Assembly (NCBI GenBank): GCA_905178155.1
Contig: CAJINV010000013.1
Location: 3,096,158 to 3,160,157, forward strand
Reading direction: 5' to 3'
Length of the DNA stretch: 64,000 nt
Origin: Amoebophrya sp. A120
Taxonomy: Eukaryota; Protista; Dinoflagellata
The notes under the pieces: generated by a model
Told to the model about the DNA's origin: nothing
What the model saw: the letters and a program-made list of their open reading frames with translations, nothing else
Databases searched by the model: none
Translations under genes and position numbers: made by a program
Shown: positions 27,894 to 60,100 of the stretch, in pieces
Layout: each line of letters begins with the position of its first letter
Numbering within the stretch: position 1 is the first letter of the stretch

Positions 27894-29473
27894 GCCGACC
27901 GCATGGAGTCCCCGTCCGATGTTGCGATTGGGATACGTGTCAAGACAAACATGGCCAATACATTAAATCCGAGCTACTTACTCGTGAGATGAGTTTATTT
28001 CCTCCTAGAGGTTGTGGAGTTTCGTAGAACTATCAGAAGACAAACACACAGTTATCGGTATGTCACCACTCGTTGGTGTACTACAGACTTTTTAATCACT
28101 ACAGTAAATTACAAACAATTTCCAACTAATTTTTGTAATCCGCCTGTCCATGAATATCCTTCACAGCTGTTGCGCTAGTACTTGCGGTCTCTGTCCGGGC
28201 GGGTTCAATTGACTTGATTCGTGCAGAGGCTTCGCAGGGAAAAAATAGATGTACGGATTATTCGTGCTTGACTTTTCATGTATCAATCAGCTCTACTAAT
28301 ATCAAGGCGTCGACTATTCAATCTGTGTATGGTTCGATATCTTCTCCTTCTTACGCCAAAACTACACTAGCGATGAAGTCGTCCGGTATGCTGCAGCTTT
28401 TTCAGCGCACTGGGACGTCTTTTTTGCCAAACGAAAAATCTTTTTGAGGAAGGTAGGTACCCGCGTCTCAAAATCAAGTCCAGCGGCGCCGAAAATATAT
28501 TTCGGCGTCGTTGGGAGTGATACAGCGATGTGGGGAATCGACTAGGTTTTTCACTGTAGTTTTTGGCTAAAGCACTGACAACGGAAGCGGTCCTGCGAAA
28601 GTTGCGATTATTTGTGGAGGTTCTGCTAGAAGTAGCGACAGCTTTTCTCGTACACTCATGGCGAAAAAGAAGGATATTGTCCGTGTGACAACGAGATGTT
28701 GTTGGAACCTCTTTTGGTCTAGACTTGGACTTCGTTGTACGTTGATACAATCTGTACATTTGTAGCGTCGCGCGCGACAGCATGGATTACACCCATTGAG
28801 GAGATTTCTTTTGTTCAACAGATGAGGCTCGGTCAATATCTCCTCCAATATTGACAGCTGAACTTAGGCCAGCTGCGTAGCTCGGGAAATAACGGAAGCT
28901 CGTGAGAACTGGACGCAATAGATCCCGAGTAGTCGGTCTTTGGTCTCGAAAAGAAGATCTTTAGGAATGAAGGGTCATGAAGTCACAGCCGTGTTTATAC
29001 TGCCTCTGCCACAAGATCTAGATTTTGTACGATCCAGTGACCATGGCCTTCATGATACGATGACAAATTACCAAAGATCAAGTGCCCGCCCGACAGAAGG
29101 CGACACTGAATCATGATCAATGAGGTTCTCGCGTTTGGGAAAAAAATAAGGTGAAAATCAAGGTCGTTTCGTATTTCGGTTAGAACGAGTTTCTCTGATT
29201 GAAGACCGGACTGTATTAAGTAGCGACTCACTCTCATGTCTCTCTTGTGTTGCTCGCACTTTATTAAGCGACTCCCTGACACTCTTTCACGCAATCTCAT
29301 TTCGCGCAGTTTGGCTTGCCGGTAGAGAAAGTATCTGAGCATTCGATTAAGTGTGATTTTGGTACGTAGCAAGAGCTTTCTCGAAAGATTTCTGATAGTT
29401 ACTTTTTTTTTTACGCGACTGGGATTTGGCAAGTCAGAACTTGACTGAGTCAGCACGTTTTAGCGCTGTCAAA

Positions 29474-31699
29474 ATGAGGTTACGTTCTCCCAAAGTTGCA
29501 TTGTTCATCCTCGCTGGAATTGCTGGCCTCTCGGTCCACCAACCTGCAGCTGTGCGCGGCGCCACTTCAGCCAGTGCTTCGCAACCAGAGAATGAGCATC
29601 CGCGTTATCATACACAAGACCGCCGATTAGACGACGTTGATGCTGCTCACACCATCCAAATTCAATCCCCGATCACGCCAAAAAACTCAGAAGCAATACC
29701 AGAACACTCGGAAACAAAAGAGCTGCCTCCCTCGTCGTCCAGCGAACCACTTTCCCCAGTCGACCCCTCCGAGCTCCATCCACCCCCAGAATTCGGTTCA
29801 TTTTCCTACTTTTCCCGTTGGTTCTGGTGGCTCCTCGTTGCCTACTTGTTTTTCGCCCAGGCGACCGCGATCGCCGAGTGGTTTGTCCCCGCGATCGAGG
29901 TGGTGTGTGAGAAGTACGGGATTCCGGAGGATGTGTCGGGGGCGACGTTGATGGCTTTGGACGTAGTTGCGGCGACTCTGTTCACAAATTTGATGGCACT
30001 CTTCGTGACGCAGTCGGATTTTGGGGTGCAAACGATTATCGGCTCGAACATCTTCAACCTCCTGTTGATCCTCGGAATCAGCATCCTCGCTTCGCCGATA
30101 CAACCGCTAGTTGTCGACAAGTGGCCGTTTTTCCGGGACTGTTTCTTCTACCTGCTGTCGGTCGGCCTGCTCTACTGGGTCTTGCGCGACGGGGTGGTTA
30201 CGCTACGCGAGGCCTTGGTTCTGCTAACCTTCACGGGATTTTTCTTTTGCGCCGTCGGATACACGGACCGGGTTCTGGTTTATTTCGGGGTGCGAGAAAT
30301 AAATGGCGGTTTTTCTGCTTTAAGCTCGAGGGAAGAAGAGGAGGTCAAAGACGCAGCCAGCGAGGATCTCGAATGGTCTTCTGACTGTCCCTTTGTCCCA
30401 ATGGATGAGCAAGCGACCATCAGCGTCTCGCAGACGTCGCGAATGGAATGCAGAACCACTGCCACAAGTCACAAGCTGGAGATACACGATAGTCATTTTG
30501 TCGCCGAAGGACTGTGGGAAAGGAATTTTGCGACATCCTCGGGCGGGGGCGGACTATGTAACAAGCAATCTCGTTCCAGCAATGTGATCGGGACAAGTGG
30601 TTTGTCTTGCGCAGTGGAGATGACAAGCGCGAAAGGCAATTCACTTTGCAGTGCGTCGGGCAGGGGGCAGAAAGGAGCAGCTCCCGCCTCTACGCTTCAT
30701 GCGTTGTCCCCCATGGGGCTAGCGTCCCCTTTGCTAACCAGTGGCGAAGATGACATGTCGGATGGGTCAACCACAGCGCATGATAGTTGCAACGACGAAG
30801 CCGTTATTGGGGTGACATCGGAGTCTAAAGCATTCTCATCGACAACAACACCCAGGAGCGCAAAACAGCAGCAACAGCAGAGTAAAAAACTTTACTTCCG
30901 CGATATCCTGGGCACGACGCAGCTCGAAGGCCCGACGCAGATCAGCTTTCGGGACAAAAGTGACGATACTATCCGCTATTTCATCACGTTCTCCTCTGAA
31001 GCCGTATTAGGCCAGGTGTTGGATCTGATGGACAAACAGGCCCGAGACAAGAAATCTCAGCAACGCATGTCCTCCCCGAAATTTTCGGTGACTGGCAATA
31101 TATCGCAAATCTGCAGCCCCGGAGTGCGGAATTGTCAGAAGGCGTATTTGGTGGCAGCCCTCCCCATCAACTTCCTTTTCGAATCCACCATGCGGTGGTG
31201 TGACCCGAAGAACCCGAAGACTGAGTCCCTTTGGCTGGTCGCGTTTACCATCTCCATGTGCTGGCTCGCGGTTTTTTCTTACATCCTGGTCACGGTGGCG
31301 GACATCATCAACATCCAATTCCACATCACGCAGGCCATTCTCGGGGTGACACTATGCGCCGCCGGGACGTCGTTTCCGAACCTCTGGGCGAGTTACATCA
31401 CGGCGAAGGAGGGAAAAACTTCTATGGCAGTGGCGAATGCGCTGGGCTCGAATGTGCAGAATGTGTTCATCGCACTGGCGTTGCCCTGGGTCGGGAAGAC
31501 GTTGGTTTCAGAGAACCATGAAATTCCCATGGTCACTCCGGGGATTATGGACGGAGTCGCGTGGATGGGAGGCACTTGGCTGCTACTGGTGCTGCTCGCA
31601 GTTGGAAACGACTATGCCCTGCAGCCGTGGATGGGATATTTGTTTCTCAAGCTCTACCTCGTGTATTTGGTGGATGCGTGCTTCATTCATACGAGTTGA
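29474..31699 (+). CDS. CaCA-superfamily Na+/Ca2+(-K+) exchanger, NCKX/SLC24-like, with atypical alpha repeats
   Basis: FVPAIEVVCEKYGIPEDVSGATLMA, TIIGSNIFNLL, WPFFRDCFFY, GVTLCAAGTSFPN, MAVANALGSNVQN. Two transmembrane clusters separated by a large loop. Confidence 0.88.
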   Translation: MRLRSPKVALFILAGIAGLSVHQPAAVRGATSASASQPENEHPRYHTQDRRLDDVDAAHTIQIQSPITPKNSEAIPEHSETKELPPSSSSEPLSPVDPSELHPPPEFGSFSYFSRWFWWLLVAYLFFAQATAIAEWFVPAIEVVCEKYGIPEDVSGATLMALDVVAATLFTNLMALFVTQSDFGVQTIIGSNIFNLLLILGISILASPIQPLVVDKWPFFRDCFFYLLSVGLLYWVLRDGVVTLREALVLLTFTGFFFCAVGYTDRVLVYFGVREINGGFSALSSREEEEVKDAASEDLEWSSDCPFVPMDEQATISVSQTSRMECRTTATSHKLEIHDSHFVAEGLWERNFATSSGGGGLCNKQSRSSNVIGTSGLSCAVEMTSAKGNSLCSASGRGQKGAAPASTLHALSPMGLASPLLTSGEDDMSDGSTTAHDSCNDEAVIGVTSESKAFSSTTTPRSAKQQQQQSKKLYFRDILGTTQLEGPTQISFRDKSDDTIRYFITFSSEAVLGQVLDLMDKQARDKKSQQRMSSPKFSVTGNISQICSPGVRNCQKAYLVAALPINFLFESTMRWCDPKNPKTESLWLVAFTISMCWLAVFSYILVTVADIINIQFHITQAILGVTLCAAGTSFPNLWASYITAKEGKTSMAVANALGSNVQNVFIALALPWVGKTLVSENHEIPMVTPGIMDGVAWMGGTWLLLVLLAVGNDYALQPWMGYLFLKLYLVYLVDACFIHTS

Positions 31700-32765: not shown

Positions 32766-34247
32766 GGCCTGGGCGCCCTGTAGCCCTTCGCAAAATGGCC
32801 CGGACACGTGAGGACTGCGCAGAAAAACGGCAAGCAGGACGCGCGACAAAGATCAAGATGACTTATGTCCTAGGGAGCGCGTCAGATTGGCGCACTTTTC
32901 TCCCAGTGCTCTGCTATATATTGGATGGCGCGCGATATTATATATTCGGTTTCGGACGTAGTGGCTTGCAAAAGAATCCGATGGAACGCACAGCGCCAAA
33001 CGCGAAGGAAAAAGAAAAATTGCCACTGGTCTCGCAGTTCGTAGCTACTTTTCGCGAGAACTTCTGGATAAGCATCCCGGCTAGCGGGCGTGACGGTGAT
33101 GATGTGTAGCGGTGGTTGGTCCCTCGTAACTAGATAGTGCGTGAGAAGTGTCGCCCTACTGCCCCGATGTTCTGTTCTGAAGCTCAAGCTCCGGCGCCAC
33201 TGTCCAAGTGGGTGCTGCGGAGTTTTCTAGGATTTGCGAGGAAAATCTTGGAAAATCTCGACTCCACCGATGAAGAAAGGCTGTTGTAAGCTATGGCCTC
33301 AAAAAATTGCCGCACACCTGCAGAGCTGTTTTTGTCTTTCACAAGGATTGGTAGCTGGTGTAAGGTCTTTGGCACTATGAAAACATCCAAAGCCTCTATC
33401 AACCGCGTTGCGGCAGTATATTCCTCGAGGGAAAGTAGAGCTGCGACCCCCTTTCAGCGCGACAGCGTTGCAAAAGAAATCTCGTCTCTTCACCAATAAA
33501 GAAGCAAAAGCCAAGGCACACAGGGCCAGCTAAGCTCTATCTCCAACGCACTACACAGCAGTAAAAAAGAAAGATAGTGCTAGGAAGTTCCAAAAGGAGC
33601 TCGACGGGCCTTTAAATATCAACTTGGACCTCGAGGATGATGCCGCAGGAGATGAAAACATCAAGCAAATTATCCTGAGGAAAAACATCCCCGCACCAGA
33701 GTCAAGACGGGGACTTTGCAACACAAACGAGCCTGGGGCTTTTGGGGGTCACGCATCACAAGTTGCAGTCCGTAGTGTAGTGCAGGTTCGCAAGGTCAGC
33801 TGCATCAGAATCCTTCTGCTCATCCTGTTTACAGCATTACAAATTCCACAACACGAGTAACAATGCCTCTCCTGGCGATGCGCATTACAAATGTTCCTGT
33901 CATTGCAAATCTGCATGACAGCTCTGGTGTTTGCGCAGACTCTCAAGTATGTCCATGTGTGTTTCTGTGAGCTGATTTGCTTTGGCAATCCACAATGCAC
34001 AACACGAGCCAAAAAGTGGCACAATGGGGGAGGGGGGTAAAGTGTGTCGCGTTTTGTTTAGCATGACAACTCTGGCGTGGGGACGTTTTTACTCAGGATA
34101 AAAATGGCCAGCGCATGGAGGAGCAGTGCTGGCGACGAGCAGGAAGAGGGCATCCATAGCCTTGGGGCGGTGAGTCATAGTGGAGACGAAGCGCGTAAGC
34201 GGGTGAAGGTCTTTTCGTCCGATGAGGACGAAGACGAAGACGCGCTG

Positions 34248-34291: not shown

Positions 34292-34881
34292 CGAGCGCAG
34301 CATAGAGGTTGAGGTACTACACAAGTAAAGTGGGGCACCACGTGAGAGAAGAGCTGGCACAGTGACGCTGGCATAACATTCATTTAGGAAAGTCAACTCC
34401 GCAAAATAGGATGGACGTGAGGATTCGAGTGTATCTATAGAAGCTGCTACGTTTTAGTATTATTTTTTGCGGTGATTATCCATCGTGGTCGAGTGACAGA
34501 CAGGCTGCTTGCAGAAGCAGGTCAGGCGTCATCGCCAGTAGCGTTGTCCCGCCCCGAGAGTTTCTTCTGCTCCTGTTAACACGACCAGGGACTGCCATTT
34601 CGAATTATATCCCCGTGCTACTCATCTGACTGATTCCGAAGAACCCTTTTCAAAAAGAACAATCTTCGGAGTCGTTTTCTGTCATGGTAATTCTATCTAA
34701 GCTGATGTCGAAATGAGAATGATGTAAAACTCCAAGATGAGCACCAGGACGATCAATTATTCAAATTGAAATAAATGGAAGCTTCAGTTATCTTTCTGTA
34801 TCCCTACCAATAGGGTTCTTGCTGTCCACCAGTCAGTGACGAGCGTTTGGTACCAAAGAAAACCAGGCACTAGAGGAACGC

Positions 34882-37800
34882 ATGAAGGACCACACGACAA
34901 CTGTTTCGCCCAGGATGCTCAAGGAGGACTTCAGCGCTACGAAGAACGACGGAGACGTCGGACAGGAGCTGTTGCACGACGACCCAATCATGCAACAAGA
35001 TGAACTTCTACAACAAGAGGAGCAAGAAGACGTGTCGGACATTGGAATCCGCGATTTGCTACATTGGGTTACCCCCAAGGAGAAGCGGGCCTACTACTTC
35101 GGGAGCGTGAATGCGGTGTTTTTCGGGTTTCTGCAACCCGCGATGGTGTACTACCTGGGCGAGGTGTTCGACGTGGCCGCGCAGCGGTATGGCGTTCTCA
35201 AACGTTCTGAACTGTTGCATGAATTTGTAATGCAAGAAGAGGAATAGCTATAGCACAGGACAGGTGAGAGCGAGAACCTTGCGCGTCTTGCATTACAGAT
35301 TTGGTGCGGATTCTAGTGCTATTTAGCCCTCCGACAATTTGCCATGCGAAGCAGCTTGATCGTGTGGTGGCTCATGGTCATTTTGCATGACAAACCATGT
35401 AACAGCTGAGAATGTAACATTTGAGAACGCCATAAGCGGGACCCGAACGACACTAAGGCGTTTGCGGATAAGATTCAGGAGATTTTATGGATTTGGGGGG
35501 TGATCTCGGTGCTGAACTGGGTCACCGCGCAGTTCTACATGTGGAGCTTCGAGTATGCAAGAAACAAACCGTGTAAGTGTAAATTTGTGTTGCAGAGGAA
35601 GCAAGACACCTAGACTTGTCATGCTGAAGATGCGTCAGAGTTTCTTCTCGTTAAGTGTTTTCACGCACTAGCTACGCATGAGAGGTTTTCTCTGTCACGC
35701 AGAGGAAATTTGTGATGCTGCTCCTCCAAGAAAGTTACACTTACACACTTTTTTTCCTGGATATCGAGTGGGCGGTGGCCAACCAGCTGTACACGATTCG
35801 GAAGGAGTACTTCGAGAAGGTTCTCTACCACGATTGCGAGTGGTTCGACGCGAAGGACCCGCTGACCGTCCCCTCCCGGCTGATGGTCGACATCCGGAAG
35901 ATCAAGGAGGCGCTGGGCTCGAAGATGGCCATGGCGATCATGAACGTCGCCCAGTTTTTCGCGGGCGTGTTCTTCGGGTTCATCGTGAACGCGGAGTTAA
36001 CCGCCGTGTGCTGCATTCTGTTACCTCTAATGGTGTACGCGACCTATTTATTCGCCACAGCCTTAACCGGCTACTCGCAGTGGATGGCCAAGTACTACAT
36101 CAAGTCCGGCGCCGTGGCGGACGAGATCTTCGCGAACGTGAAGACCGTCGTGGCGAACAATGCGGAAGCGCGAGAATTACAGCGGTACGAGGACCTGTTA
36201 AAGCCCGCGCGGGTCGGGAAGGCGCGGGTGGCGGTGCGGGTCGGCTTCCAGCTTGGCTGCATGGACGCGTGCTGCTTTCTCGTGTACGCTTTGTGCTTCT
36301 GGTACGGCTCGCGGGTGATCGCGGACGACGGGAAAAATGAGTTTGACAACTCCACGTTAGATGGCTCCGACGTGATGAAGGTGGTGTTCAACCTGGTCAT
36401 CGGCGCCTTTGGTTTGGGGCAGGTCGCGCCGGCGATCCAGGCCTACGCCGAGGCGAAGCCGGCCTTGAAGAACATGAAAAAGCTAAGGGAGGAATGGGAA
36501 TGGAAGATGAGGCACAAGAGAAACGCGACGCCCAGTTGTATTGGTATTGCGGGGAATGGAAGAAAAGGTGCAACCGCATCAAGCAGTTATACCATGACAA
36601 CGGGCGGTGACATCGTCGCAAAAGCTGTCAGCTTCCAGTACCCCACACGGCTGGACGCCCCGAAGGTTTTGAGCAATGTGAATTTCGAGATCAAAGCCGG
36701 ATCGAAGGTGGCCTTCGTCGGCGAGTCCGGGAGTGGGAAATCCACGATTATCCAGCTTTTGGAACGGTTCTACGACATCGGAGAGGTTGTTGATGCCGTG
36801 GTTGATCCTGCTCTTGCCGCTGGCGGTCAACAAGGTACCAGTCTTGCATCCTCCTCTCTGTCCATCGGGGGCATCGAGTTGAAGGATATGAGCATGAAAG
36901 AATTGCGGAAGCAGATTGGCTATGTGCAGCAAGAGCCGGTGCTGTTCGAATGCAGTTTGCGGGAAAACCTGCTGTCCGGTTTGGAAAACGAGGACGAGTT
37001 TGGAAATACCCAGACCACTACGAACGTGACCGAAGCGGACCTGATTTTCGCGTGCAAGCAGGCCCAAATCTGGGACCTGATTCAAACCTTCCCCGACAAA
37101 CTCGACACTTTGCCCGGCCAGGGCGGCAGCCAGCTGTCCGGTGGCCAGAAGCAGCGCATCGCGATTGCCCGGGCGCTGGTGCGGAAGCCGAAGATTCTGC
37201 TGCTGGACGAAGCGACCTCGGCACTGGACTACGCGAGCGAGAAAGAAGTGCAGCGGGTCATTGACCAAATCGGGACTACAAGAACTTCTTCCACAACAAA
37301 TTCCGCCGAAAGCCATAAGATGACGGTCGTCATTGTCGCGCACAGATTGTCCACGGTGCGGAACTGCGACAAGATTTTTTTCCTGAATCGGGGCGAAATT
37401 CTGGAAACCGGCACGCATGAGGAGTTGCTTGCTTTGAAGGGAGGCTACTTCAAACTGGTCGAAACGCAAGCCATGTACGATGCCTTGCAGGAGAGGAGCG
37501 GCTCGAAGATGCTGATGAACAACACGATAACTATCGGTGGTCAACAAGAAAACGAACTCGACGTAGAAGTTCCTAGGGTCGAAGAAACCACTGCAACTAC
37601 GAATTATGTCAACACCGATGGCGCAGGCGCAACGACCAACCCGCTTAGTACGAGCTCCCACGACCAGGCCGCCCTCGAGAACCGTTCGAACTCGAAGGAT
37701 TCGAAGCGATCGACCTCTTCGAAGGACAAAACGACGTCGAAAGATGAAAAAGATGGCGAGCTTGCGGCGATCGTGCCCTCGGTTTTGAAATCGGCGGAGG

Positions 37801-39779
37801 AAAAGGAGGCGGAACGGATCGAAGAAATCGCGAAGAGTTACCAGCTCCCACTGAAAAGGCTGCTACAGCTGAACACCGCGTCCGAGCTGATGTTCTACCC
37901 GCTGGGGTTCATGTTTTCGCTGATTAACGGGTCAATGCAGCCGACCATGATGTGGATCATGATGGACGCGGTGGAGTACTTGTACTACGAGGACAAGGCG
38001 AAGATGCAGGACGGCGTCAACGAGTTTTGTCTCAAAGCCGTCGGGTTGGCCGTGTGTTTGCAGTTGGGCTTCACCTGCAGCAACGCGTGCTACGGGTACG
38101 TGGGCAGCTGGATGACCTACCGGGCCCGGATTCTGATCTTCAAGACCTATTTACAGCAGGACATGTCCTTTTTCGACATGCCGGAGAACTCCTCCGGCCG
38201 GTTGACCGCTTTGTTGGAGAAACAATCTGCGGATCTCGGCTTTCTGTCGGGCGAGGCGTTCGGGTCCCGCTGCGAGATGCTTTCGTCCATCACCCTCGGC
38301 TTGACCTTCGCCTTTTTCGCGAGCTGGAAGCTCGCGCTGGTGGTGCTCGCGGTGCTGCCGCTGTTGATGGCGAGCATGATGCTGATGATGGTGGCTTTTC
38401 TAGGTTCCATGGAAACCGTCACGACGGACTCCCCCGAGGTGGTGGCGTCCGGGAACGTGATCGCCGAAGCGGTGCTGAACATCAAAACGGTGAAGGCCTT
38501 GACCGCCGAGGGGACCTTTTTGTCGAAGTTTGACAAGATGGTGTTCGCGATCTCCGAGAAGGAGCGGAAGAAGGCCTTTTGGACGGGTTTGGCGTTCGGG
38601 TTCTCCAACGGCATCATGGGGCTGGTGTTTATCCTCAGCTTCTGGTACGGGGCCGAGCTCGTGAAGGACGAGGGATTGAGTCCAACCGACATGTTCAAAG
38701 CGGTGATGTGCATCTTCTTCGCCGGCATGGCCGCCGGGCAGGCCGCCGCCACCGTGCCCAACACGGCGCGCGCGCTCGCCGCGGCCCACGACATCTTCGC
38801 GCTGGTGGACCGGGTGCCCCTCATTGACAACACGGAGGAGGGCAACAGTCGGAAGTACGAGTTGGTTCCGACAAGCAGCGAATCTTCCAAGCCGTTTGAC
38901 GCTGTGCGGTTCGAAAAGAATGTTCAGTTTGCGTACCCGCAAAGGCCGGAGCTGACGATCCTGGATTTAGCGCAGAACAGCACGGAGATGGTGTTCGCGT
39001 ACGGAAAGTCGATCGCCTTGGCGGGGCCGAGCGGGAGCGGGAAGTCGACCGTGATGGCTTTGCTCCAGCGGTTTTACGACCCGGTCGCGGGCGAGGTGAA
39101 TGTGGTGGAAAATAGGGAGAAAAAGTCGATCGATTTGAAGGACTTGAACCTGAAGTCCTGGCGCGAGAAAATCGGCTATGTGGGCCAGGAGCCGGTGCTG
39201 TTTAACATGAGCGCGCGGGAAAACATTTTGTATGGGATTGAGAAAGAGAAGCGAAAAGCGGTGGACCTGGAACTGCTGGCGAAGCAGTGCCATCTAGACT
39301 TCCTTGCGGGGGCTGGTACTAGCGGTACAACGAAAGCAAGTGGGACGATTGTCACGACGAGGGGAATTAGTACGTCATCACCTGCGACTCCCTCGTCCCG
39401 GCTGTCCTGGGACGAGAAGCTGGGGCCGAAGGGGTCGAAGATCTCCGGCGGACAGAAGCAACGTATCGCGATCGCTCGCGCGCTCGCCCGAAACCCGTCG
39501 GTGCTGCTGTTGGACGAAGCAACGTCGGCACTGGACGCGGTGAGCGAGAAAGAGGTGCAGGCAGCCTTGGAGGAGATCCAGAATGGCGCAGCAGGGGGGG
39601 CGAACACGAAGTTTCTGACGGTCACCATTGCGCACCGGTTGAGCACCATTGCGAACTCGGACAATATTCTGGTAATGTGCGACGGCGCGGTGTTGGAACA
39701 GGGTAGCCATGCGGAGCTATCAGCGAAGCAAGACGGCCTGTACTACAAACTCGTGCAGACCAGCTCGGCTGCGATGTAG
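34882..39779 (+). CDS. ABCB1: ABCB1/MDR (P-glycoprotein) full-length ABC transporter; join(34882..35187,35440..35553,35769..39779), boundaries slide within the direct repeats
   Basis: Two TMD-NBD halves: GESGSGKST, LSGGQKQRIAIARAL, LLLDEATSALD, AHRLST; then GPSGSGKST, ISGGQKQRIAIARAL. The N-terminal exons join only after removing two TIR/direct-repeat introns. Confidence 0.93.
35188..35434. mobile_element. Introner-like TIR element forming a non-canonical intron (247 bp plus one 5-bp repeat)
   Basis: Perfect 15-bp TIR TATGGCGTTCTCAAA / TTTGAGAACGCCATA. Direct repeat AGCGG at 35183-35187 and 35435-35439. Removing 252 nt gives VAAQR|DPNDTKAF. Confidence 0.9.
35554..35763. mobile_element. Introner-like TIR element forming a non-canonical intron (210 bp plus one 5-bp repeat)
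   Basis: Imperfect ~32-bp TIR (core GTGTAAGTGTAA / TTACACTTACAC) with TAT...ATA ends. Direct repeat TCGAG at 35549-35553 and 35764-35768. Removing 215 nt gives MWSFE|WAVANQL. Confidence 0.85.
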
Positions 39780-40868
39780 CAGCAGCCGTGTCGTGAGGTC
39801 AATTGAAGTTCTGCAAAGAGTAGAATTTTTGAATGCGAAGCACAACAGAGCAATCTGTTTATAGTTGTAGTTCTTTTTTAGAGGCTGGTGTTAGTAGTTG
39901 TGATTCGGCACTGCTAGTTTGCATTATTGTTCCAACCGGCGTGGTCGTAGTTGCCCTTCCACCCCACATTTTCTTCCTGGGCCGTTATCAAGTACTGTCA
40001 CTTCTATACTCAGCTCCTACCCACCCTCGTTGTCGTTTCATCATATTCTTTACGAAGTACTTGTATGATATCGCCCTGAAATATCTGGTGCGAGCGCGTC
40101 TGAGTCACTACCCGAGTTTCGTCGTGGGATTTCTCAGGTGAAGAATGAATTGAATGAACGAAAATAAAAGAGGACGAGGCTCTGGCTCGTCTTCGTATTG
40201 TTTCAGGAACACGAGCTAAGTTACATCATCCCAACGACAAACAGAGTCAGTTGTACACGAAGACGAATACCAGAAAAGTGCGCCGTTCTTTCCCAGCGAT
40301 TACGCTGAGGTACTTAGGTAAATACTTAAAATTCCCAGTAAGTAGCGCCTGTCTATGAGCAGCAGTTTCTACTTCACCTAGTCCAAGAACAGGGACGAGA
40401 ATAGGAGTATCAGATCGCGCTCTGTTCCTCTAAGTGAGTGCGGTCGCACATCGTTCCGAAAAATATTCATATTGGCAAAGAAGTAGCACCTCATACTCCT
40501 GCAGGTGTCTTCTCAGAGAGTCCAGTCATGATCCGCTGGATCTCCCATGAAGGTGATCGCTCGAGCTCTTTTTTCGTGAAATTTTGCTTCAAAAATTGCG
40601 ATCTTTTGATCCTCCACTTGTAAAATGTGGAAAAACGAATTTTTGAGAAGTCCAACGTGACGCCGGCACCAGAAGGTTAGTCACTATCAGAAATCGCAAA
40701 GAACCTTCTCGCTCAGCAGGACAGTGGGGCGGTTTCTGAAAACGTTTTCAGTTTTCAGTTGTGGATTCATTTATAAAGATGCTTTTCTTGTTTTCGCCAA
40801 AGTAAAATTAAAATTGAGTACTTGAGTTGTATCTTGCATCTGATCCTGATGTAAAAAAAAAATGCACA

Positions 40869-44039: not shown

Positions 44040-44963
44040 AAGCTTGTTGCATTATCGATGTGCGATGAATATACAACAAGTTGTGGAGCTGATACTGATT
44101 GGAAAAATACTTGCGGCAAGGATTTACGAATTTTGCGAGGGGTATTGATCATATCAAGTTTGTAGCATTATTCAAGCGCATGCGCACTCCGATATAATCG
44201 CAAAAAAAAGCAGCTTCCACACACGTAGTCAGGTGACCTTATGATGATTCACAGTCAGGTGACCTTATGTATGATTCAGACAATGCCGCACACAAATGTT
44301 TTTTTTCTCGTGTTTTTCCCCTGGAAAGCGCGCATGGCAGACTTCCTGAATCGTGTGTTCGTTGAAATGGACAAATCCGCCCTGGGTGTGGGTATTTAGT
44401 ACTTATGAGGCTGATGTACTTCTTACGTTTGTTCCCGACGCAGAAGTATTGTGAGAGAGGTGGGAGTTGCAGTTGCACAGTCTCTGATATGTTGATAGAT
44501 ACGTCTGTATACTTCTCTTCTTGGGTGGTTCGCCTTCTTCCTGCAGGTCGCATAAAGTTGATTTACGCGTATTAATTTTTCAACAAAGTAAGAACATTTC
44601 GTCCTTGAGAAAGTGAAAAGTACAGGAACGGTTATGGCAACAGTCTACAAGTCGCAAACTTTCATCATCTTCTTGCGCACCAAGATAAATGGGCCGAAAA
44701 ACGCCGGCTGATTTGTTTTTATTTGCTTGTCTGACTTCCCATCTCTTTGTATTTTCGTTCATCTACTTCTACACCAAAAAGAAAAATTTCTTTACAGTAA
44801 GCACCCAGTTACTCTAGACGAAGATTATGTACGACGATTTCGATCGTGTCGCCGGTTTTGCGTTGCCCTCTCATTCTGGTGAACACAATCTGCCGGACCA
44901 CTATCGTCAGCAACGGGAAATGGCAGCGTCTAGTTATAATTTATGGATGGCAAAGCAAAGAAA

Positions 44964-45200
44964 TATGTAGTCCGGGTCTGGAATTTGCATTGCGTTTGTT
45001 GCATGCCTGCGCAATCTGTGTTGCATGACCTGCAACAGCGCAGCCTTGTCTGTCATCCAAAAACGCATTTTTGCATGCGGATGCGTGCGACGTTTCAGAG
45101 GGCGTTGCAAAACCTTGCCATGCTCGACGGCTGCAAGTAAGTAGACGCGTTTCGATCACCTGTAAGTCTGCATCTTCGCAGGTTCCCAGACCCAGACATA
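44964..45200. mobile_element. Probable introner/MITE-like element near the 5' end of the next gene
   Basis: Inverted ends TATGTAGTCCGGGTCTGGAA ... TTCCCAGACCCAGACATA. Shares TGTCTGGGTCTGG with the 5026-5381 element and TCTGGAATTTG with the 57108 MITE. Nearby direct repeat ATATG at 44963-44967 and 45211-45215. Confidence 0.55.
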
Positions 45201-45265
45201 TTTGCAAGTGATATGGTTCTGCTTACACGAGCCACGAGCAGCACGACGAGGCAGATCTGGTCAAC

Positions 45266-47179: not shown

Positions 47180-47481
47180 ATTGTCGTACTAGACACGCTT
47201 GGTTTATGCGCTTTTTGCAGCACAAATCTTTTCGGCTGCCTTGTATCTATTCGCACGATGATGCTTTTTTTTGCCGCACCTAAAACCAAGGATTTTGCAA
47301 GTGCTGCATTAGAGGGGCCCACACGATGGACGTTGTCGATTTCAAACTCTGGTAGCGCGGGGGATGATTGTAGTGCATACGCTTGTCTTCGAAAGAGTGC
47401 GAGTTGAGCTCCTCCAGCACGTTGATACTGTCGGCGCCGCCCGCATATCCAAGGAAAAAACCGTTTCTCTGTCGTGAACTT

Positions 47482-50400
47482 ATGATGCAGAGGAGGCAAG
47501 GCGAAATCAGGCAAGAAAAGGGATTCGCATTCATCTTTTCTCTGTTAGAAAGAAAGTTAGTGCCACGACACATGCTTGATTTTCTGTGTCATGTGAAACA
47601 AACTTGCCATGTCTTGCCAGTCCTGCAAAATCAAGATCACACTGGAACGCTTTTTCTTTCGTTCGATACCGCAGCTAGTGTGGGTAATATTTCGCTTGCA
47701 GGAAAAAGTAGAGATGAAGTAGATCCAACCGCCAGTGGGTTTGACCTAGAACTTCTTCAAGCGAAGAGCAACAGGAAAAGGGAGAATAAATTCGTCGTGG
47801 GCCGTTTCGATCAGGAAAATAAGCTAAATCCGAGCGTCGACGAAGATTTCACACTCTCGGAAGACGAAGATGATGAAATTAGGGACAAGCAAGCAGACGA
47901 GCCGCGCTCAACGGACCACCACGACGAAAAGGTAAAAGTAAAAGTATATGATGAATAATACCGATACCCGCATGGATCATGTAAGAACGTTGACACGGCT
48001 GCAGAGCGAGCGCGATGCATATTTCTACGTTCTGTTTCTGTCTTGTTGTATACGTTTTCTTTTTTTTGTGAAACAAAACAGGAACCACTAGAGCGCCCGC
48101 GCGAGGCGGAGGCAGCGCCGGAAACCGAGCTACCGAAGGCTGTTGTCACTTTCCCAATAGCAACGACGACAAGATCGCAGCGCCAGCGTGAAGGGGGACT
48201 AGAGGACGGGCAAGAATTCCGGTTCGCGCCGGACCTGCTGCAGATGCACCTGAGTAAGACCAGTAAGAGCAGCACCAGCAGCAGCAGCAGCAGCTCCGCT
48301 AGCAGTTCTGCTTTCTCACCGGATAGCGAAATGGTTGTACCAGCAGACGTCGTTGCAAGGCAGGGAGAAAGCGGCGAGGAGCGGCGAGGTGGAACACCAA
48401 GTAACGCGCCGGACCGCCCGGTAGATGATTTTCCTTTTGCCGCCCCTGGTACCTCTTCTTTGTCGAAAAGCACGAACCGCACACTGAGCCCACAAGCACC
48501 CGGAGATTTGATTACCTCGGGTTGTGAGCGACCTGATGGCGAAGATGGACAGGAGGAAGACCACAGCGTCGCGCGCCCAGGTCAACCTCCGCCGAAAAAG
48601 AAAATCCTGTCCGTCAGCAGACGCGTTGCGGGAGTCTCGTATTGCGTGCAAAAGCATCGAGTTTTCAATCTGCATGGTACCACTTGTTGTAGAGAGTGGA
48701 CAAGATAAAAGGATGAAAGTTGACGAAAAGGTTTGCGTGAACTTCTACAGCAGCAGTGGCTTTTCTCTTGCGTAAGCGTAGGCACTTCATCTTCTACAGT
48801 ATACGTTTTTGTTTTACATTTCGAGGTTGCTTGTTGTATATCTAATATGCACCTTGTATTCATCGCGGTTGCGGTAGTACGAATATCGGATGCGGTACTT
48901 TTGCAGGGGATAGAGTGATCGCGCCATCAACAACGGCAGGGGGCAGTGGGACCACGACGGACCGCGATCATTCGAATAATTACGCAACAAGTCAATATGG
49001 GCATGGTCATGGTCGGAGCTCCGGATTGCCGGCTACTTCCAGCAGTAGACGACGCACCTTGAGCAGAAACAAGTACAACGGACAACCTTCCCACGTCGAA
49101 GTGGGTCGAGATCCTGTTTTGTTCATAGAAGCAGCTAGTACAACATCTACATCAAAACACCCCGCCAGCACAACTGGTGCAACACCAAGCGCGATCTCCG
49201 CGAGCGCTCGGGGCTCGGGGTCGGACCGTCGCAGGAGTGCGCGGGGGGACCGGACTGGTCGGGGTCGACTAAAACAAGCAGTGGCGACGGTGAGCAACCA
49301 GCACCTTCTCGCAGAGGCGTCGCCGCAGAGTGGTACTACTAATGTCGGATCGTCGTGGTCGCAGCAGCTGTCTTCAAGTCAGTCCCGTGGATCGTCCAAT
49401 CACCACAATTTTCAACCGAGCGGTCGGCGAAGGACGCAGTCCATGGGGCGCGACGATGCGAAAGACGTCCAGAAGCCGGGCGAAGTTCAAATACAGCGAA
49501 GCAGCTACGAGGTCGAGGTTGATCCTGCCAACGGCGCGACTGCGAATCCAGGGAATAAGAGTAGCAAGTCATCTTCTTCTGTTCTGTCCAACAACAAGAC
49601 CACCGCCACGCGTGCATCCACTGCGTCAAGCAAGCAACCTAGCGCGTCGAATCTCGCTTCCGCTCGAGGTTCGGGTAGACGGAGCACTGTGGGCGCAGGC
49701 GGTGCTGCAGCTGCGGGGGCTACAGATCAAAATTATGGTCAGCACGGAAGTTCAAGTTCATCGTCTGCGGAACTTTTTCATCACGGGGAAACTACAAAAC
49801 AACACCCTCTGCATCACGGCGCCACAAAGATTCCTCCACCGCCGACGAGCGCCACGAATCCCCGAGCGTCGAATAACAAGCAGTATAGCTCCGTCCCCTA
49901 CCCGACGGCGGCCCACAACAATCCACTTGCCGGCGGTGCTGCTCGGGGGGAGCGTGATCGTGAACGTAATTATTCGAATCGCGGTGATGCGACCCTGTAT
50001 GCCCATGACGCAGGAGAGGGTCCTAGTGGGAGTCCTGATAACAGGACCAATCATGCGAAAGAACGCGTCAGCGTCCTGGTCAATCCGCCCCCGGGCGACA
50101 GAGAGCAGTGCGGTTCATTCTTGCAAGGAAGCAGTACTCCGGTTTCCGAAGCTGCGCCGAACAGGAACTTGCACTCTTCCAAGTCCGCACGGCAGTTGAG
50201 TCGAGGGACGAGTCCGCGAGAAGGAACTTCGGGAACATGTTCTGCTTCGAGCAGCAGCACCACGAACTTGCTTTCATCAAGTAGCATAAACAACTACATG
50301 AAAGCGGGTTCCTCTGTTTCGTCGACCGCTGTCCCCGGAGGTCGCAGAACGTCGCTCGGGGGCCATGATAGAGTCGGATCTTCAGGCTATCACGCTGCCC

Positions 50401-51761
50401 CGGGTACTACAGCACCGGCATCCGAACGGCAGCACAGCGACGCGTTCTTACCTCGGGGCAGGCGTCGCCCCTCGGCATCCCGTAGCCCACGGGAGAAGTT
50501 GGAGCACCGCAAGCCGCGCGACAAAAATAAGATGTCGGCTTCATCATCATCTGGTAAACCCGGAACAAGTACTAGTAGCTCCGCTCCATCTGGGACAACA
50601 ACTACGATGCGAGGACAAACTGACGGCCTGAATAAAGTAGATTTTCGCGGAAAAACTAACACGCGCCGCGACGAGGACGAATTCCAGTCGGAGCACGGTA
50701 TGAATACGGTCACAACTACTAGTCCGCGACGAAACATCAGCAATTTCAGTGACCACAAGATTGTGATGCCCATCAAGATGGTCGAGGTTCAGGAGCGTGA
50801 GCGGGTTCCTGACGTCTTCGAGTTGGTCCAGAACAGCGCCAGGCAGACACCCACGCCCGCGGGTGGAGGTTCTGGTGCGGGCAACTCTGCAGCGCTCTTA
50901 CGGGCGGACGTGGATCTTCACAAGGAGGTTGACGTCGAAGTCGTGCCCGCGGAGGCGAATGAAAATTCGTCGCCGCGACGAGAACCTGCTCCCGGTTTGG
51001 ACGTGGAGCATCAAGCAGAGGCTTTGTCTCCTGTTGAGGCTGACTCAGTAGCTTCAGGCTATCCAATCGCACCGGACGACCGCGAGAACAGAACACAATA
51101 TCGCCGTGGTGGTCAACAACATCAACAAGAAGTCTTAACCACGCCGCCGCAACCTGCCGGAAATTATAACTCTATCGAGTTGAAGGAGAGCATTATCCTT
51201 GCCACACCAGAGCGGCCGGGGCCGAGCTCGTCTGCAGCGGGTGTAGTTGGGCGGGGTAAGAGGAGATGTTGTTGTTCATACGTTTCTTGTATAATCATGA
51301 AACTTGTGCTCGAGCTTGTAATGGTAAGGTAAGGTATTTGGATGATGTGCATCTCTGGAACTACTGCGTCAGCAAGTTCATTTTACAAGAAATTTGTCAA
51401 AATCAACATGGCAGGCCAGCCAAACGGCGCTTCTGCCACGGGCAGCAACACCATCGCGGCTCCGCCACCGTCAAGCTCTTCTGCTGTCGCGCCGTCGAGG
51501 AAAGCAAAAACCGCCGCGGCGACTCCGGAACCACCACGACACGGGAATCATTTTCAGTACAGGTTTGCTGTGCAGTGCTTAATACTTTGTGACGAACATG
51601 ATCAACCACAGAGCGAAAGTCATACTGTCGGAGCTTTTGCTTTTCATCTTTCAACTTGGTTCGAGGTGGAAGTGCATGCTTCGAAACCACCTTCTACTCT
51701 CCAAATAAACCAGGATTTCCACTGGAGCATTCAGCGGAACACCCAGCGGGCAACTGAATAG
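47482..51761 (+). CDS. Hypothetical Ser/Thr/Arg-rich protein, 4 or more exons, start uncertain
   Basis: ORFs link in frame through GT-AG introns 47932(or 47944)-48081, 48677-48906 and 51256-51414. Confidence 0.55.
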
Positions 51762-52127
51762 TCCCGGCAGTGCGCTTATGCAGTGAAAAAAGTATCGTGC
51801 CAGAACTAGTAGGAATCGCTCATTCAAGAAATTTGTGCATGCTCAACGCTGCTTTTGTATACTAGAAGTGGTACGATGCTTTTGCACAGGATAGCGGTGA
51901 TGGAATTTTACCAAGGCGGGACAGGAACGAGACCGACGACCAATGCCTCGTCTCTGTTACGAATCCAGCAGCCGAAGGTTTTGCCGACAACAAGGGTATA
52001 AATGGCGTGGCTTGAGCGTTTTGTCGAGCGTATGATACTTAGTACTATCGAACAGGAGTCGTCTTTATTGTGCTGGTCCTTAGTACTGGAGTCGTCTTTA
52101 TTGTGCTGGTCCTAAAAATAAAGAGAC

Positions 52128-54129: not shown

Positions 54130-54142
54130 TTCTGGAATCAAA

Positions 54143-57100
54143 ATGCGTTCTCGTGTTCAAGAAGCCATCACACCTCAGATCCCTCGGATGCAGTTGGACT
54201 ACAATTTTAGTGGAGCTTCTGCAGCCGCAAGCGGCAACCTGCCGTTCCGCTCCATGGTCGGCGTCCAGCATCTTCCTGGGTCGCCGGTGACCGCCGGCGG
54301 GCCGCTTATGGGGTCGTCCACCGGTGGTCAACAACACCAGTTTGCGGTAAACAAGCCCTCGTATCAAGCGCGAAGTCTCTCGCCTCCGGCGCCCATGGTC
54401 GGTGGCACAACCCTCGTGTTTCCCCCAGCAGCAGCCGGCGGGCAGAACGGGAAGTCTGGGGGAAATGGCGTTGGAGCAGCAGCAGTTCCCTCTCCTGGTA
54501 CGGCAACGAATGTTCAATTCGAGGAACCCGCAGCAGGGGGAAGTCAGCAAATAGGTACAGAAACTACGGGCATCAAATAAGTTTCAAAGAAATTCAAATT
54601 CTTAGAAGCAAAAAAATAATTTAGTCTTTGCTCCTCTTTTCGAAGACGCACTGACTTCGTCGTGAGTAGCAGAGAATGATGGTGACATATCAGGTAGCGC
54701 CGCCAACAATCTTCCCTCGGCAGCAGCTGCATCGGCAAACGCCAGCTTTTTTCCGGCAACGACCACGACTGGTGTGATGAAATTTCATCCCCTGAGCAGC
54801 CAAGTGTCGCCGCGGCTCTTTGATTTGCAAACCCGAGCTGCTGGAGGTGTTCCTCTGGCTACAAACAGCCGCAACCGGAGCGGCGGGAAACCGGCGCTGC
54901 AAAATTTCGATTTTCAATCCCACGGGAAATCTCAAGTTCCGTCGCCGGGAGGTGTGTAAGTGGCAGCAAAGTAAAAGGTGCGGGGCAGCATCTTTGGGGA
55001 CAAGTTTTGACTCTCTCAAGAAAACATGCTAGATTTTTGGCGTAGATTTTATCCATTGTCGAGATTCACCGAAAAGATGAAGAAGCGGTTTGGGTCTCTT
55101 CAAATCAGAAGGCTCTACTGCTGCATGTGCAGCATCGTGAACAAATCCAGGTTAGTCTTGCAAAAAATTTTTCAATAAGATAATTTAGCCTGCCCCTGCC
55201 GAGCTGATGCGGCCCTGTTACAATCCCTGCTAGAGCTGTTTTTCAGTTCTAGGCCTTCTTCCCCAACGGTTAGAAATTCTCTGTATGCTTCGACTCAACA
55301 TGGAGATAAGTGTCGTGGTTCACAGCATTGCCATCTGCGTCAAATCGTACCGGTTTTCGTGGTTTTTCACGAAAGAACATACAATTTTCATGCTTTTTCT
55401 CCATACCTCACCGTCGTCCTCTTTGCCTCGTTCGTGCAACACCAATTTGCGTCTTTTCGTCATCGTTCTCCACGTTGCAAAACTACTCGTTGCGAGATAG
55501 GTCGTTCGTCGCGTTGTTCTTGCGTTTCCTCATTGATTTTCACGTCAATCGAGAAGCTGTTTTACCAGTAGTTTTGATGCAATCGTTCTTGTCGTGGCTG
55601 TAATGTGTTTTTCGTCCTACAATCCGGCCAGCTTTACCCTACCCCAAAAGGACATGACTTTATAGAAACTCTTAGCCGCCGAGTCTCCACATACCTATCT
55701 GCGATAGATTTCATGTTTTTTCTTCCCACTATATTTGTAGTAGAACGACCGCGACATCATGATCCCGACCCCGAAAGTGATTTACTAGCAGCGGCGCACT
55801 AATGAAACAAATCCATTGTTCATCAGATTACGATTATCAGTCATTTTACCAGTAGACCTACTACAGTAGAACGAACTACATGTGCTGTTTAGTTTTCACA
55901 GTTCCGTGGTCGATCGTCCGCAATGGGTCCTTTGGGTCGCCGGCCACCGCGACACAAGGACCCATATACGAGCGGTTTCTGGCCCAGGCGAAGCGCGCGC
56001 GCTTCGGGTCGCAGCAGTCCGCGGAAAAGGTCGCGGGGTTTCTGTCCTGGCGGTTTTCCCAGCTGTGCCTGCTGCCGTTTTTTTACTTGATCCGTGGAAT
56101 CATCGACATGACGGACGTGCGACTGTACGATAATTTCAGGGACCACGTGGAGGAGACCGTGCCTAACAACAGTACTACCATGGCCCAGGAGGTGGTTGCC
56201 GAGCTGGCTCCCTTTTTCCGCACGTTGGGCCTCGAGGACCGGTTGCTGGATGCGGTGAATGTGTGCAACATCCTGTTGCTACTCCTGTGCATCGTGTTCA
56301 ATTTCGGGCCGGAATACTTTTTGAAGGGAGGAACAGCAGCTGTATCAGAAGTAGGGGAGAAAAATCATGATAGCTTGCGGCCTTCACGTCGAAGTGACAG
56401 CGCCGGGAACTACAGGAAGACGTCTCGCACCCCAGCTGAAGATGTCCTCGAGGGTAGTGCGACTTCTGCGACCGAGGAGAGAGTAGAACTTCTATCCGAG
56501 GATATGGATGGTCACAGAGCGGCGGAAAGCATTTTGATGCGGCTCAGGGCGGGAAAAGAGACACGGCAGCGTCCGGAGGTAGAATTTGAAGGAAGTGGTA
56601 GTAGATCTGCGTTGGCTGTTGCTGAGGATAATGCTCTAGTACGAGGGGAGACACAACATTCCGAAGGTAGCGCGCCAGAAGGCATAGACGTCACAGCAAT
56701 TGTAGAGGGGATCATAGAAGATCAAGATCATGGCGACGATGATAGACCACTGACGGAACAGGATATTATGACTATACTGGAGCAGCGGCTGTCTGCGGCA
56801 ACACAAGAACCAGGTGGCCCAGAGGACGCGAGGACCAGCGACGGTCAGAGCAAGAAAACTGCAGGCGAGAAGCAGGAAGAACAAGATCCGACTACTGCGG
56901 CGGGCGCAGTGGATTCCTACCTGAGCATGCTGATTTGGCTGCAGCGCGTGGGCGGGTGCATCCTGATCCTGAGCTTTGCGCTGAGCATGTCGGTGCCCTT
57001 TGTGTTGTATCTCCTGATCCCCTTCCGCGCCTGGATCGACGGGACGGGCCTGCAGAAGGTCTTCTGCGTTCGTATAACCCGCTCAGGTGTTACAATCTCA

Positions 57101-60100
57101 AACGTTACAATAGAATCTGGAATTTGTGTTGCAAGAAGTGCATTATCTAGCCAACTCTCATAGAATTGCGCATGACAAGTTTCGGAGCTCCGAACCGCAC
57201 TAGAATCTGGCGAAATTTGTATTGCAGAAAGCGTAACGCTCTGCGAGTCTGTCATGCTCATCATGCAACACAAATCCCAGATTCTATTGTATGTAGTGAG
57301 GTCACCGAACGGCTCTAACCAGGGAGTTTTTTTGACAGTCAGACAGCAAAACGGCCGTCAGTTTTCAAGCCGCCGGAGGCGTTTTTTGACATAAAAAATT
57401 TATAATTATCAAGCGGACGGGGCTTTGCCATCAAACAAGCCCGGTCGAAAACTATCGATTCGCACTGGATAAAACGACGCAGGGGAGCCGGCAAAAGGGG
57501 CGCCCTTCTGAGGCGCCCGCCGCCTTAGTTTCTGGCGATTTGGGGCGCCCAAAAAGGGGCGCGCAAAAAACGCGCCCAAAATCAGAACAGCGAAACAGCA
57601 TGGCACGGCCGCGATTTCGGAGCATTTTGGGCGGCCGCGAAAGCGGCCGCCTTTTCGCCGGTTTCAGAGCCTGGGAAGCTTTGCAAAAAGCGCCGGCGTG
57701 AAAAATAAAAACGCGAAAAAGAAAAAGCGGCCCGCACGCGCAAAGCCAATCCGCATGCTATGGGCCCGATTTTTCTTCGCTTTTTGGGCGCCCCCCGTGG
57801 CACCCGGATCGGCCCCATAGCATGGGGGCTGGCTTTCGGAAAGGAATTTCGGAAATTTTCCAAAATTTGCGACGTTTCCCAAGTGGCCGCCATACCGTGC
57901 GGCATAACGTTACTCACGGCGGTATGGCGAGCCCATAGAACGCAAAGCCGCGGCCAAGGCTGCGGTCGGCAAAAAAACGCCCACGACCTCACTACCTCCG
58001 CCTCGGCGGCTATTATTGGTAACGTTTGAGATTGTAACGGTTGAGCAGGTCATAGTTCGGGGCGTCGCCTACGTTTTGACAAACGTGTATCCGGTCGACC
58101 GGCAGGTCAACGAAACGCTCGTGCTCACGGCCAACGCCTTTGCCTACACAAGAAGAACCAACAGCAGTATTAGAGACGTTCAGGCCGCTTGTCGTGCCTG
58201 GTGCAACACTATGTCTTCCGCCCCGGAGAACTCAGGAGACTCTGTTGTCACTAACTACAGAGCAAATGACCGTTGCTTCGGGGAGTGCCTTTTTGCAAAA
58301 AGTGTTATACCGGAGAAGAACCAGGTGCAGCAGGAAATTTTAGCAAAAACCTCTCCAGGCCGCGGGATAAAGAACGATAGCAATTGGACGACCATGCCTT
58401 CTGTTGATGTTTCCAGGAAGGTTCCGGACTTACTTTTTGTCACAAAAGATGGAGGTGAAGTAGACCCTTTAGCTCACGTCTGGTTTAAGGACGACCAGGC
58501 TCACGCGGCGCAGCAATCTGGCGAATATTGGTGGCGTGCACAAATGAAACACGGTAACCCGAAACCGGAACCCAAAACACCAAATACAAGTTCTACGGCC
58601 CCCTTCGACCTCCACTATGAAGAACAAGACGAAACAGAACCCAGCAACAGCATGATAAGCAAAAACCGGGAGTTTATTGCGGGCCAGTTGCGGTCTGCGC
58701 GTTACGACCTGCTGGGTAGCCAGGACCTGGACGTGGAGGCTTTACTCCAGAAAGAGTTAGAAGCTACAAATAATGGCGGGGATCACCCTGAGTCAGAACG
58801 CGGAAAACTAGACCAGAATCTGACTTCATCTCCCCCGACATCTTCTGCCACATCACTTTACACCTACAACGATGTTGATCCGACTGTGTCCCTGAAGGCC
58901 GATCCGGCGCGATTCTTTGCTGTGGACCAATTCTGTTCGCACCACGGCAGCGCCTGGAAGGACCAGTTCGATTCCTTCGCCCTCCCCTGCGCAGTCGGCA
59001 CGGCGGACGCGTGCGATGAGGTTCTCGGGCGGAAAAGGCCGTTCGTTAGCGACGAGGAGACGACTTCCGGGGGTCCTTCTTTTATTTCCGCCGAAGTAGA
59101 GGAAGATGAAGAAGATGCATTCGATTTCCCCCAAAGCCAGAGTCCCTTTGTTGGGGCGACTCCTAGTACAGGCTCGTTGGAACAAGACGGAAAAAACTAT
59201 GACTACACAAGAGGTTCACGTTCATCTGGCAAGATCAAAAGCAAGTCTTCTTGGCGTACCGGCATGAGTGTTTTTTTGGAGCACCAGACGGCACGACAGA
59301 CGAGAGAAGACAAACTGCATTGGGACACCGACCACATTTTGAATGCTCCTCCTTTCGCCCCCGCTGCTGCAAATGTTGAAAATGAAATTACAAGCTCGTC
59401 GTTGTCAAAACCGGTTTGCCTGGACTACGAGCGAAAGGAAAACGATTACGGAAAAAAGGTGCAAAGGGCGGCGCTGGCCTACATGAGTACGTGTCTGGAA
59501 GAGATGTATTTTTACCACACGGGCCGGTATTGCGAGATCGAGCCGTTGAGATGCGATGCGGAGGTGCGCGCGGAGCTGAAGAAGAAGGTGTTGGAGACGA
59601 AAGCGGAAAAACGCGCGACCGCTCTAACGCCCCCTGCTTCGGTGACAAAAGATTTAGAAGCTGTGCCGCCGGCTCCGGAAGAGATTTTTTCCTCTTCGAG
59701 GATTCTTCCTCGTCGAGGACTTTTATCAGGAATAAATGGGAACGACTTCATTGCAGATGATCATGCCGAACCGCAACTTGATCATGTAATAGCTGACGGA
59801 AATAAAAATAATTCCACCAATCGGTCCGAGGGTAAAAACAACTACTCCATGCAGCTGCACCAGAATCTCAGTTCAATAGCACCACAAGGACGACCAGTAC
59901 GACGAGACGTCATGAATGCAGTAAACGATCTTCGTCTAGGTCCGCCCGTTTCCCACCACGACGTACATTATTACGATTTGAATCGTGAGCCGATAGGACA
60001 AGACGGGCAAGTCGGAGTAGTTCAAACAAGCTTGGAAGGGTCAAAGGTAGAGGAGGAAAATGACATTAATGTGCTCAGCGCTTGGGATTCCGATTTATGG

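What the first reader, a model, noticed from the sequence alone, without database searches (positions are those of the whole stretch)
35183..35768. Two adjacent TIR plus 5-bp direct-repeat introns in ABCB1 where GT-AG splicing would frameshift
Seen: both elements start TAT, end ATA and have different 5-bp duplications (AGCGG; TCGAG). A GT and an AG exist at each pair of ends. Using them (35187-35436; 35553-35768) shifts the frame, whereas removing the element plus exactly one repeat yields a plausible transmembrane exon (IQEILWIWGVISVLNWVTAQFYMWSFE). The first element shares TCTCAAACGTT with the TIR at 57073, suggesting a related family. Inference: a conserved gene depends on repeat-guided, non-canonical splicing.
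Basis: partly seen in the sequence, partly recalled or inferred. Interest (0 to 1): 0.75.

Follow-up and report, generated by a model that had tools for sequence, protein, structure and literature searches.

The report
Known Amoebophrya introners in ABCB transporter
Two small hairpin-ended mobile elements interrupt a drug-pump gene of the marine parasite Amoebophrya A120 and are missing, to the base and without normal splice signals, from what are likely its messenger-RNA assemblies; this intron class was published in 2021, and a neighbouring copy suggests the cut is likely set by distance from the hairpin rather than by the flanking repeat.

Summary
Real, but already known. Both elements exist as described: 35188-35434 and 35554-35763, TAT...ATA ends, terminal inverted repeats, 5-bp direct repeats AGCGG and TCGAG. 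Contigs of two likely-RNA runs (one study) skip exactly 252 and 215 nt, element plus one repeat. A DNA-like run does not. No register of either joint is GT-AG, and the GT-AG cuts truncate the protein at 123 or 171 aa. The spliced 1476-aa product is identical to the public Amoebophrya sp. A120 protein P0001, a full-length ABCB/P-glycoprotein-like transporter. Farhat et al. 2021 (PMC7789003) describe these A120 introner elements: TAT-starting inverted repeats, 3-5 nt direct repeats, 65% of introns non-canonical. One correction: 'repeat-guided' is probably wrong. A TAT...ATA element at 48640-48912 has no direct repeat, yet element+5 nt is removed, which pins the cut to -1/+4 or 0/+5 from the element ends. 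All five such introns examined fit this, but only two have decayed repeats and only one has both ends shown. This scan has noted the same class and fixed offset on other DNA of this genome (unreviewed notes). The removal machinery remains unknown.

The parts
34882..35182 (+). Exon 1, coding part (ATG at 34882; boundary can slide to 35187)
   Evidence: aligns with the N-terminal membrane segment of homologues
35183..35187 (+). Direct repeat AGCGG, left copy
35188..35434 (.). Introner element 1, 247 nt, TAT...ATA, inverted arms 35188-35206 / 35416-35434; many look-alike ends elsewhere in the DNA-like run
35435..35439 (+). Direct repeat AGCGG, right copy
35435..35548 (+). Exon 2, 114 nt in the left-most register, hydrophobic membrane segment
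   Evidence: piece of X1 record 1 and X4 record 8
35549..35553 (+). Direct repeat TCGAG, left copy
35554..35763 (.). Introner element 2, 210 nt, TAT...ATA, inverted arms 35554-35586 / 35731-35763
35764..35768 (+). Direct repeat TCGAG, right copy
35764..39779 (+). Exon 3, rest of the ABCB transporter to the stop (Pfam ABC_membrane, 2 stretches, and ABC_tran)
48640..48912 (.). Comparison case: TAT...ATA element (15/20 end match) with no direct repeat; 278 nt = element+5 removed, only registers -1 or 0 possible
57073..58054 (.). Related 982-nt element with direct repeat GTTCG; ends colinear with element 1; removal would join two ORFs in frame; joint not shown in the lay

Best explanation
These are two introner elements of Amoebophrya sp. 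A120: non-coding inverted-repeat elements, likely transposon-derived, flanked by 5-bp repeats, that sit in the coding sequence of an ABCB transporter gene and are removed with exactly 5 extra bases, without GT-AG, from likely mRNA. Shown: anatomy, the removed lengths, the frame, and identity of the product with the public protein. Inferred: insertion made a 5-bp target duplication. The ends pair into a long RNA stem, and the cut falls at a fixed distance from the stem (1 base before TAT and 4 after ATA, or 0 and 5). Because the offsets sum to 5, the length of the duplication, each insertion is removed without a scar. Least certain (about 0.55): the enzyme is a relaxed spliceosome rather than a separate nuclease-ligase.
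For: Joints 35182>35435 and 35548>35764 in X1 and X4, absent from X9, whose pieces tile through both elements. None of 6 and 7 equivalent registers is GT-AG. Product identical to P0001, A120, 1476 aa, and colinear across both joints with the A25 homologue and others. Stems fold far better than shuffles. X4 also skips a GT-AG-compatible intron (54555-54693) and the repeat-less element 48640-48912. 5 of 5 TAT...ATA introns examined remove element+5 and allow offsets -1 and 0. PMC7789003 sections 10-11: A120 inverted repeats start TAT, direct repeats 3-5 nt, most spliceosome parts present, U1 snRNA not detected. 9 of 9 'predominant A120' motifs in its Table S4 have T in second place, as a -1 cut would give.
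Against: X1 and X4 are only guessed to be RNA, come from one study, and are contigs that drop rare variants, so minor GT-AG use cannot be excluded. The two elements of the finding have perfect repeats and cannot locate the cut themselves. The offset rests on one intron with both ends shown and one whose right end was inferred from a hidden 58-letter piece; the frame test for that piece was not discriminating (229 of 450 placements open). PMC7789003 Fig. [quoted passage not shown] Table S4 motifs may reflect aligner bias. Nothing here tests the enzyme.
Confidence: 0.9

Rival explanations
1. Repeat-guided removal: the machinery (or a reverse-transcriptase template switch in the library) uses the two direct-repeat copies to rejoin the flanks.
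For: Both joints of the finding fall inside perfect 5-6 letter repeats and the flanks are brought together by a stable stem, the setting in which template-switch artefacts are known (own knowledge).
Against: 48639-48916 is removed with only 1 of 5 flank letters matching. The joined form restores a conserved 1476-aa frame, while retention stops it at 121 or 159 aa, so it is needed in vivo if the gene works.
Confidence: 0.07
2. X1 and X4 are DNA of cells in which the elements are absent or precisely excised, so the removal is at DNA level, not splicing.
For: The runs' kind is a guess; element+1 repeat is also what an empty insertion site looks like.
Against: The same runs show no other letter difference from the window over the gene (table 3), and X4 also lacks a GT-AG-compatible intron and a repeat-less element. 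X9 and X10 carry the elements in continuous pieces.
Confidence: 0.02
3. Canonical GT-AG splicing at other nearby sites, or a CDS that starts downstream of 35769.
For: In-frame GT-AG pairs exist near the ends: 7 of 11 listed for intron 1 and 10 of 10 for intron 2 keep a long frame. There is an in-frame ATG at 35715.
Against: None matches the observed joints. The upstream exons align with homologues and are in the public protein.
Confidence: 0.01

Closest known systems
Introner elements / non-canonical introns of Amoebophrya sp. A120 (Farhat et al. 2021, PMC7789003; read: abstract, sections 10, 11, 12, 16, 32, supplement passages and part 3 with Table S4; figures not seen)
   Same: Same organism label (P0001), TAT-starting inverted repeats, 5-bp direct repeats at the borders, hairpin, about 240 nt typical length, non-GT-AG borders, repeated in the genome.
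   Different: Nothing in anatomy; arms here extend to 19 and 33 nt with mismatches against 8-20 nt reported. The paper leaves the border undefined or variable; data here favour one fixed offset.
Introners in general, including diverse TIR DNA transposon-derived ones in A120 (Gozashti et al. 2025, PMC12130899; read: 4 passages naming Amoebophrya)
   Same: Transposon-like elements that create introns on insertion.
   Different: The Micromonas and Aureococcus examples; the latter keep canonical splice motifs according to PMC7789003 section 16. These two do not.
Euglenid nonconventional introns (Nomura et al. 2025, PMC12501133; read: abstract and introduction)
   Same: Non-GT-AG introns with paired ends; borders set at a fixed spacing from a paired motif.
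   Different: Signature is N3CDG / CHGN5-6 and a purine starting the exon, not TAT...ATA; unrelated lineage; tested by knock-in there, untested here.
Full-length ABCB (MDR/TAP, P-glycoprotein-like) transporters
   Same: ABC_membrane and ABC_tran domains; best solved relatives are ABCB1 (E 3.7e-195), then ABCB4 and bile salt export pump.
   Different: Only 30-38% identity outside Amoebophrya among the long alignments listed; orthology to ABCB1 not tested.

Membership tests
A120 introner elements (Farhat 2021) | Intron supported by transcript data with non-GT-AG borders | tested here: met
   Joints in X1 and X4; no GT-AG register. Runs are likely RNA, one study.
A120 introner elements (Farhat 2021) | Inverted repeat at the two ends, able to form a hairpin | tested here: met
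A120 introner elements (Farhat 2021) | 3-5 nt direct repeat overlapping the borders | tested here: met
A120 introner elements (Farhat 2021) | Inverted repeat starts TAT, then about seven loose bases, then at least three A | tested here: met
   TAT in both; AAA begins at position 13 in element 1 and within positions 9-15 in element 2, slightly off the stated spacing
A120 introner elements (Farhat 2021) | Repeated in the genome | tested here: met
A120 introner elements (Farhat 2021) | Organism is Amoebophrya A120 | tested here: met
   Spliced product identical to P0001, labelled Amoebophrya sp. A120
A120 introner elements (Farhat 2021) | Strain-specific position (absent in the A25 orthologue) | not testable with these tools
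   Only the A25 protein P0003 was available, no DNA
A120 introner elements (Farhat 2021) | Assignment to one of the 1954 numbered families | not testable with these tools
   Family models not held
Canonical U2 GT-AG introns | GT...AG in one register that gives the observed joint | tested here: not met
   0 of 6 and 0 of 7 registers
MITE / non-autonomous TIR transposon | TIR, target duplication, no coding capacity, many copies | tested here: met
   210-247 nt
MITE / non-autonomous TIR transposon | Cognate transposase | not tested
   None among 17 window ORFs and exon pieces scanned in Pfam; PMC7789003 section 16 reports putative transposases only in A25
Euglenid nonconventional introns | N3CDG / CHGN5-6 signature and euglenid host | tested here: not met
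   Ends are TAT...ATA; host is a dinoflagellate

The most novel reading that the evidence does not exclude
A120 introners are cut by a hairpin ruler: one fixed offset from the TAT...ATA stem (most likely -1/+4), independent of the border dinucleotides and of the direct repeat. The offsets sum to the 5-bp target duplication, which is why any insertion is silent. This would replace the published 'variable border' picture with a simple, testable splice code, convergent with that of Euglena.
Probability: 0.6. Interest if true: 0.55.

Novelty: already known. Interest (0 to 1): 0.22.

Why it matters
As a locus it adds little: it is one of tens of thousands of such introns in a published genome, and the public gene model already has it. 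It is a clean example, since the nearby GT-AG pairs are demonstrably not the ones used in a conserved gene. The open question is how these introns are removed in a cell where U1 snRNA was not found. The fixed-offset reading would narrow that question to a testable rule, but the evidence for it comes from neighbouring elements, not from these two.

Tried and rejected
No whole genome was held, so no copy number or genome-wide tally. X13 (raw RNA reads) laid 0 reads on the gene and X5 laid 0 contigs on 44100-64000: no test, so no read counts or strand. 6 of the 15 listed runs were laid. X1 has no cover over 45428-55387 where X4 has; a lack of cover is not taken as evidence. No joint for the 57073 element was among the 15 joints shown of 50. 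Candidate 62874-63060 (weak inverted repeat, 4-bp repeat) is not removed: an X1 contig runs through it; 5 further weak candidates and one mispairing were not followed. Exons 1 and 2 alone hit no Pfam family. The shared 11-mer by itself was judged weak; blastn of element 1 against the 57073 element gave only E 0.04-0.15, and the colinear end comparison was used instead. A TTGTGATGCA-like internal motif is about 5-fold denser in elements (20 hits in 2635 bases against 91 elsewhere), but it was picked from the elements, so the number is inflated. PMC11282704 names Amoebophrya only in its reference list. Three paper searches listed no paper whose title or abstract start states a fixed offset for these introns; most were not read, and subscription papers and the supplement's figures S19-S25 could not be seen and may bear on this.

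Full report
Observation. The sequence is as described. AGCGG stands at 35183 and 35435, TCGAG at 35549 and 35764. Between them lie element 1 (35188-35434, 247 nt; arms 19 nt, 95% complementary) and element 2 (35554-35763, 210 nt; arms 33 nt, 82%). In the whole window 4 TAT...ATA pairs have at least 11/16 end complementarity and a 5-bp repeat, against a mean of 0.03 in 30 approximate shuffles. Both fold into long stems, z -4.8 and -4.2, with 0 of 200 shuffles as good.

The gene. Downstream lies an open frame to 39779 with ABC_membrane and ABC_tran domains, closest to ABCB1 among solved structures. From the ATG at 34882, removing 252 and 215 nt gives 1476 aa. The GT-AG cuts give 123 aa (first, or both) or 171 aa (second). 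Retention gives 121 or 159 aa. The 1476-aa product is letter for letter the public protein P0001, labelled Amoebophrya sp. A120. It aligns across both joints with an A120 paralogue, the A25 homologue (45% identity overall) and the other relatives among 15 aligned. The first joint falls in a loop of variable length, the second in a gap-free stretch.

Transcript evidence. Of 4 runs laid on 34300-40300, X1 and X4 (RNA by guess, two samples, one study) each hold a contig that skips 35183-35434 and 35549-35763. X9 (kind not on record) has no such joint, and its pieces tile through both elements. X13 laid nothing. In X9, 750 contigs lay on the stretch, piled on the element ends and running on into other flanks, so both elements are repeats. 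The joints can slide over 6 and 7 registers, none GT-AG. In the second lay (44100-64000), X4 contigs skip further stretches that X10 carries in continuous pieces, among them one that reads GT...AG (54555-54693). This makes RNA the likely nature of X4. Contigs hide rare forms, so minor canonical use is not excluded.

What guides the cut. The two elements cannot say, since perfect repeats hide the register. A neighbour can. X4 record 20 joins 48638 to 48917; inside is a TAT...ATA element (48640-48912, 15/20 end match) whose flanks TCTCG and GAGTG are no repeat, yet element+5 is removed and only offsets -1/+4 or 0/+5 are possible. A second (47110-47379, flanks CGTTT/CGCTT) allows -2 to 0, but its right end is inferred from a 58-letter piece that the table did not show, as is the left end of 47446-47668. 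All 5 of 5 allow -1 and 0. At -1/+4 the two introns read GT..CG and GT..GA, and others AT..GC, TT..CT and GT..GT, so even the GT is not required. Table S4 of PMC7789003 lists 9 predominant A120 motifs, all with T second, which fits -1 but may reflect aligner bias. I reached this reading, before seeing that unreviewed notes on other pieces of this genome report the same offset; they are not independent support.

Kinship. The ends of element 1 and of the 57073-58054 element match colinearly at 24 and 22 of 33 positions after TAT, the best of 84 pairs; random TAT-anchored pairs reach 22 or more at about 3e-5. Element 2 and 47446-47668 match at 19 and 18 of 33.

Mechanism. Shown: anatomy, removed lengths, restored frame. 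Inferred: transposon-like insertion with a 5-bp target duplication; an RNA stem that brings the ends together; a cut at fixed distance whose offsets sum to 5, so that one repeat's worth goes with the element. Guess: a relaxed spliceosome, since nearly all its proteins and U2, U4, U5 and U6 were found in A120 while U1 snRNA was not. A separate nuclease-ligase is not excluded.

Comparison and verdict. PMC7789003 reports 66,565 RNA-supported introns in A120, 65% non-canonical, introner elements with 8-20 nt inverted repeats starting TAT and 3-5 nt direct repeats, 29,850 repeated introns in 1954 families. PMC12130899 attributes A120 introners partly to TIR DNA transposons. Euglena offers a tested analogue of spacing-defined borders (abstract). 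The finding is a correct rediscovery of two ordinary members of a published, still unexplained class. Interest 0.22; the fixed-offset reading would merit about 0.55 if shown genome-wide.

Noticed in passing
window 48639-48916: TAT...ATA element without a direct repeat, still removed as element+5 in X4; pins the cut to -1/+4 or 0/+5.
   Followed up: yes
window 47110-47379 and 47446-47668: Two more TAT...ATA elements around a likely 58-nt exon; the first has a one-mismatch repeat.
   Followed up: partly
window 57073-58054: 982-nt element with internal inverted repeats, very high copy signal in X10 and presence in X1/X4 contigs; removing it with one repeat joins ORFs 55856 and 57908 into a frame of 1730 codons with one stop and no Pfam hit for either part.
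   Followed up: partly
window 33671-34100: 430-nt TAT...ATA element with 18/20 end match and flanks CAAAT/AAAAT upstream of the gene; not covered by the lays.
   Followed up: no
window 51255-54177: X4 record 20 skips most of this stretch (302 letters hidden); it begins with a GTAAG donor-like site and holds a GC-rich repeated region at about 52100-54000.
   Followed up: no
window 54553-54691: Intron with a 5-letter repeat AGGTA at its borders that can be read GT-AG.
   Followed up: partly
inside elements, 30-50 nt from an end: Recurrent TTGTGATGCA-like motif in 6 of 7 elements; chosen after the fact.
   Followed up: partly
window 35549-35553 / 35764-35768: The repeat contains the palindrome TCGA, so the predicted stem of element 2 runs on through both repeat copies.
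   Followed up: no
window 251-2281, 8182-9315, 29399-31699: Pfam hits: Cdc6/ORC-like ATPase, RIO kinase domain, sodium/calcium exchanger.
   Followed up: no
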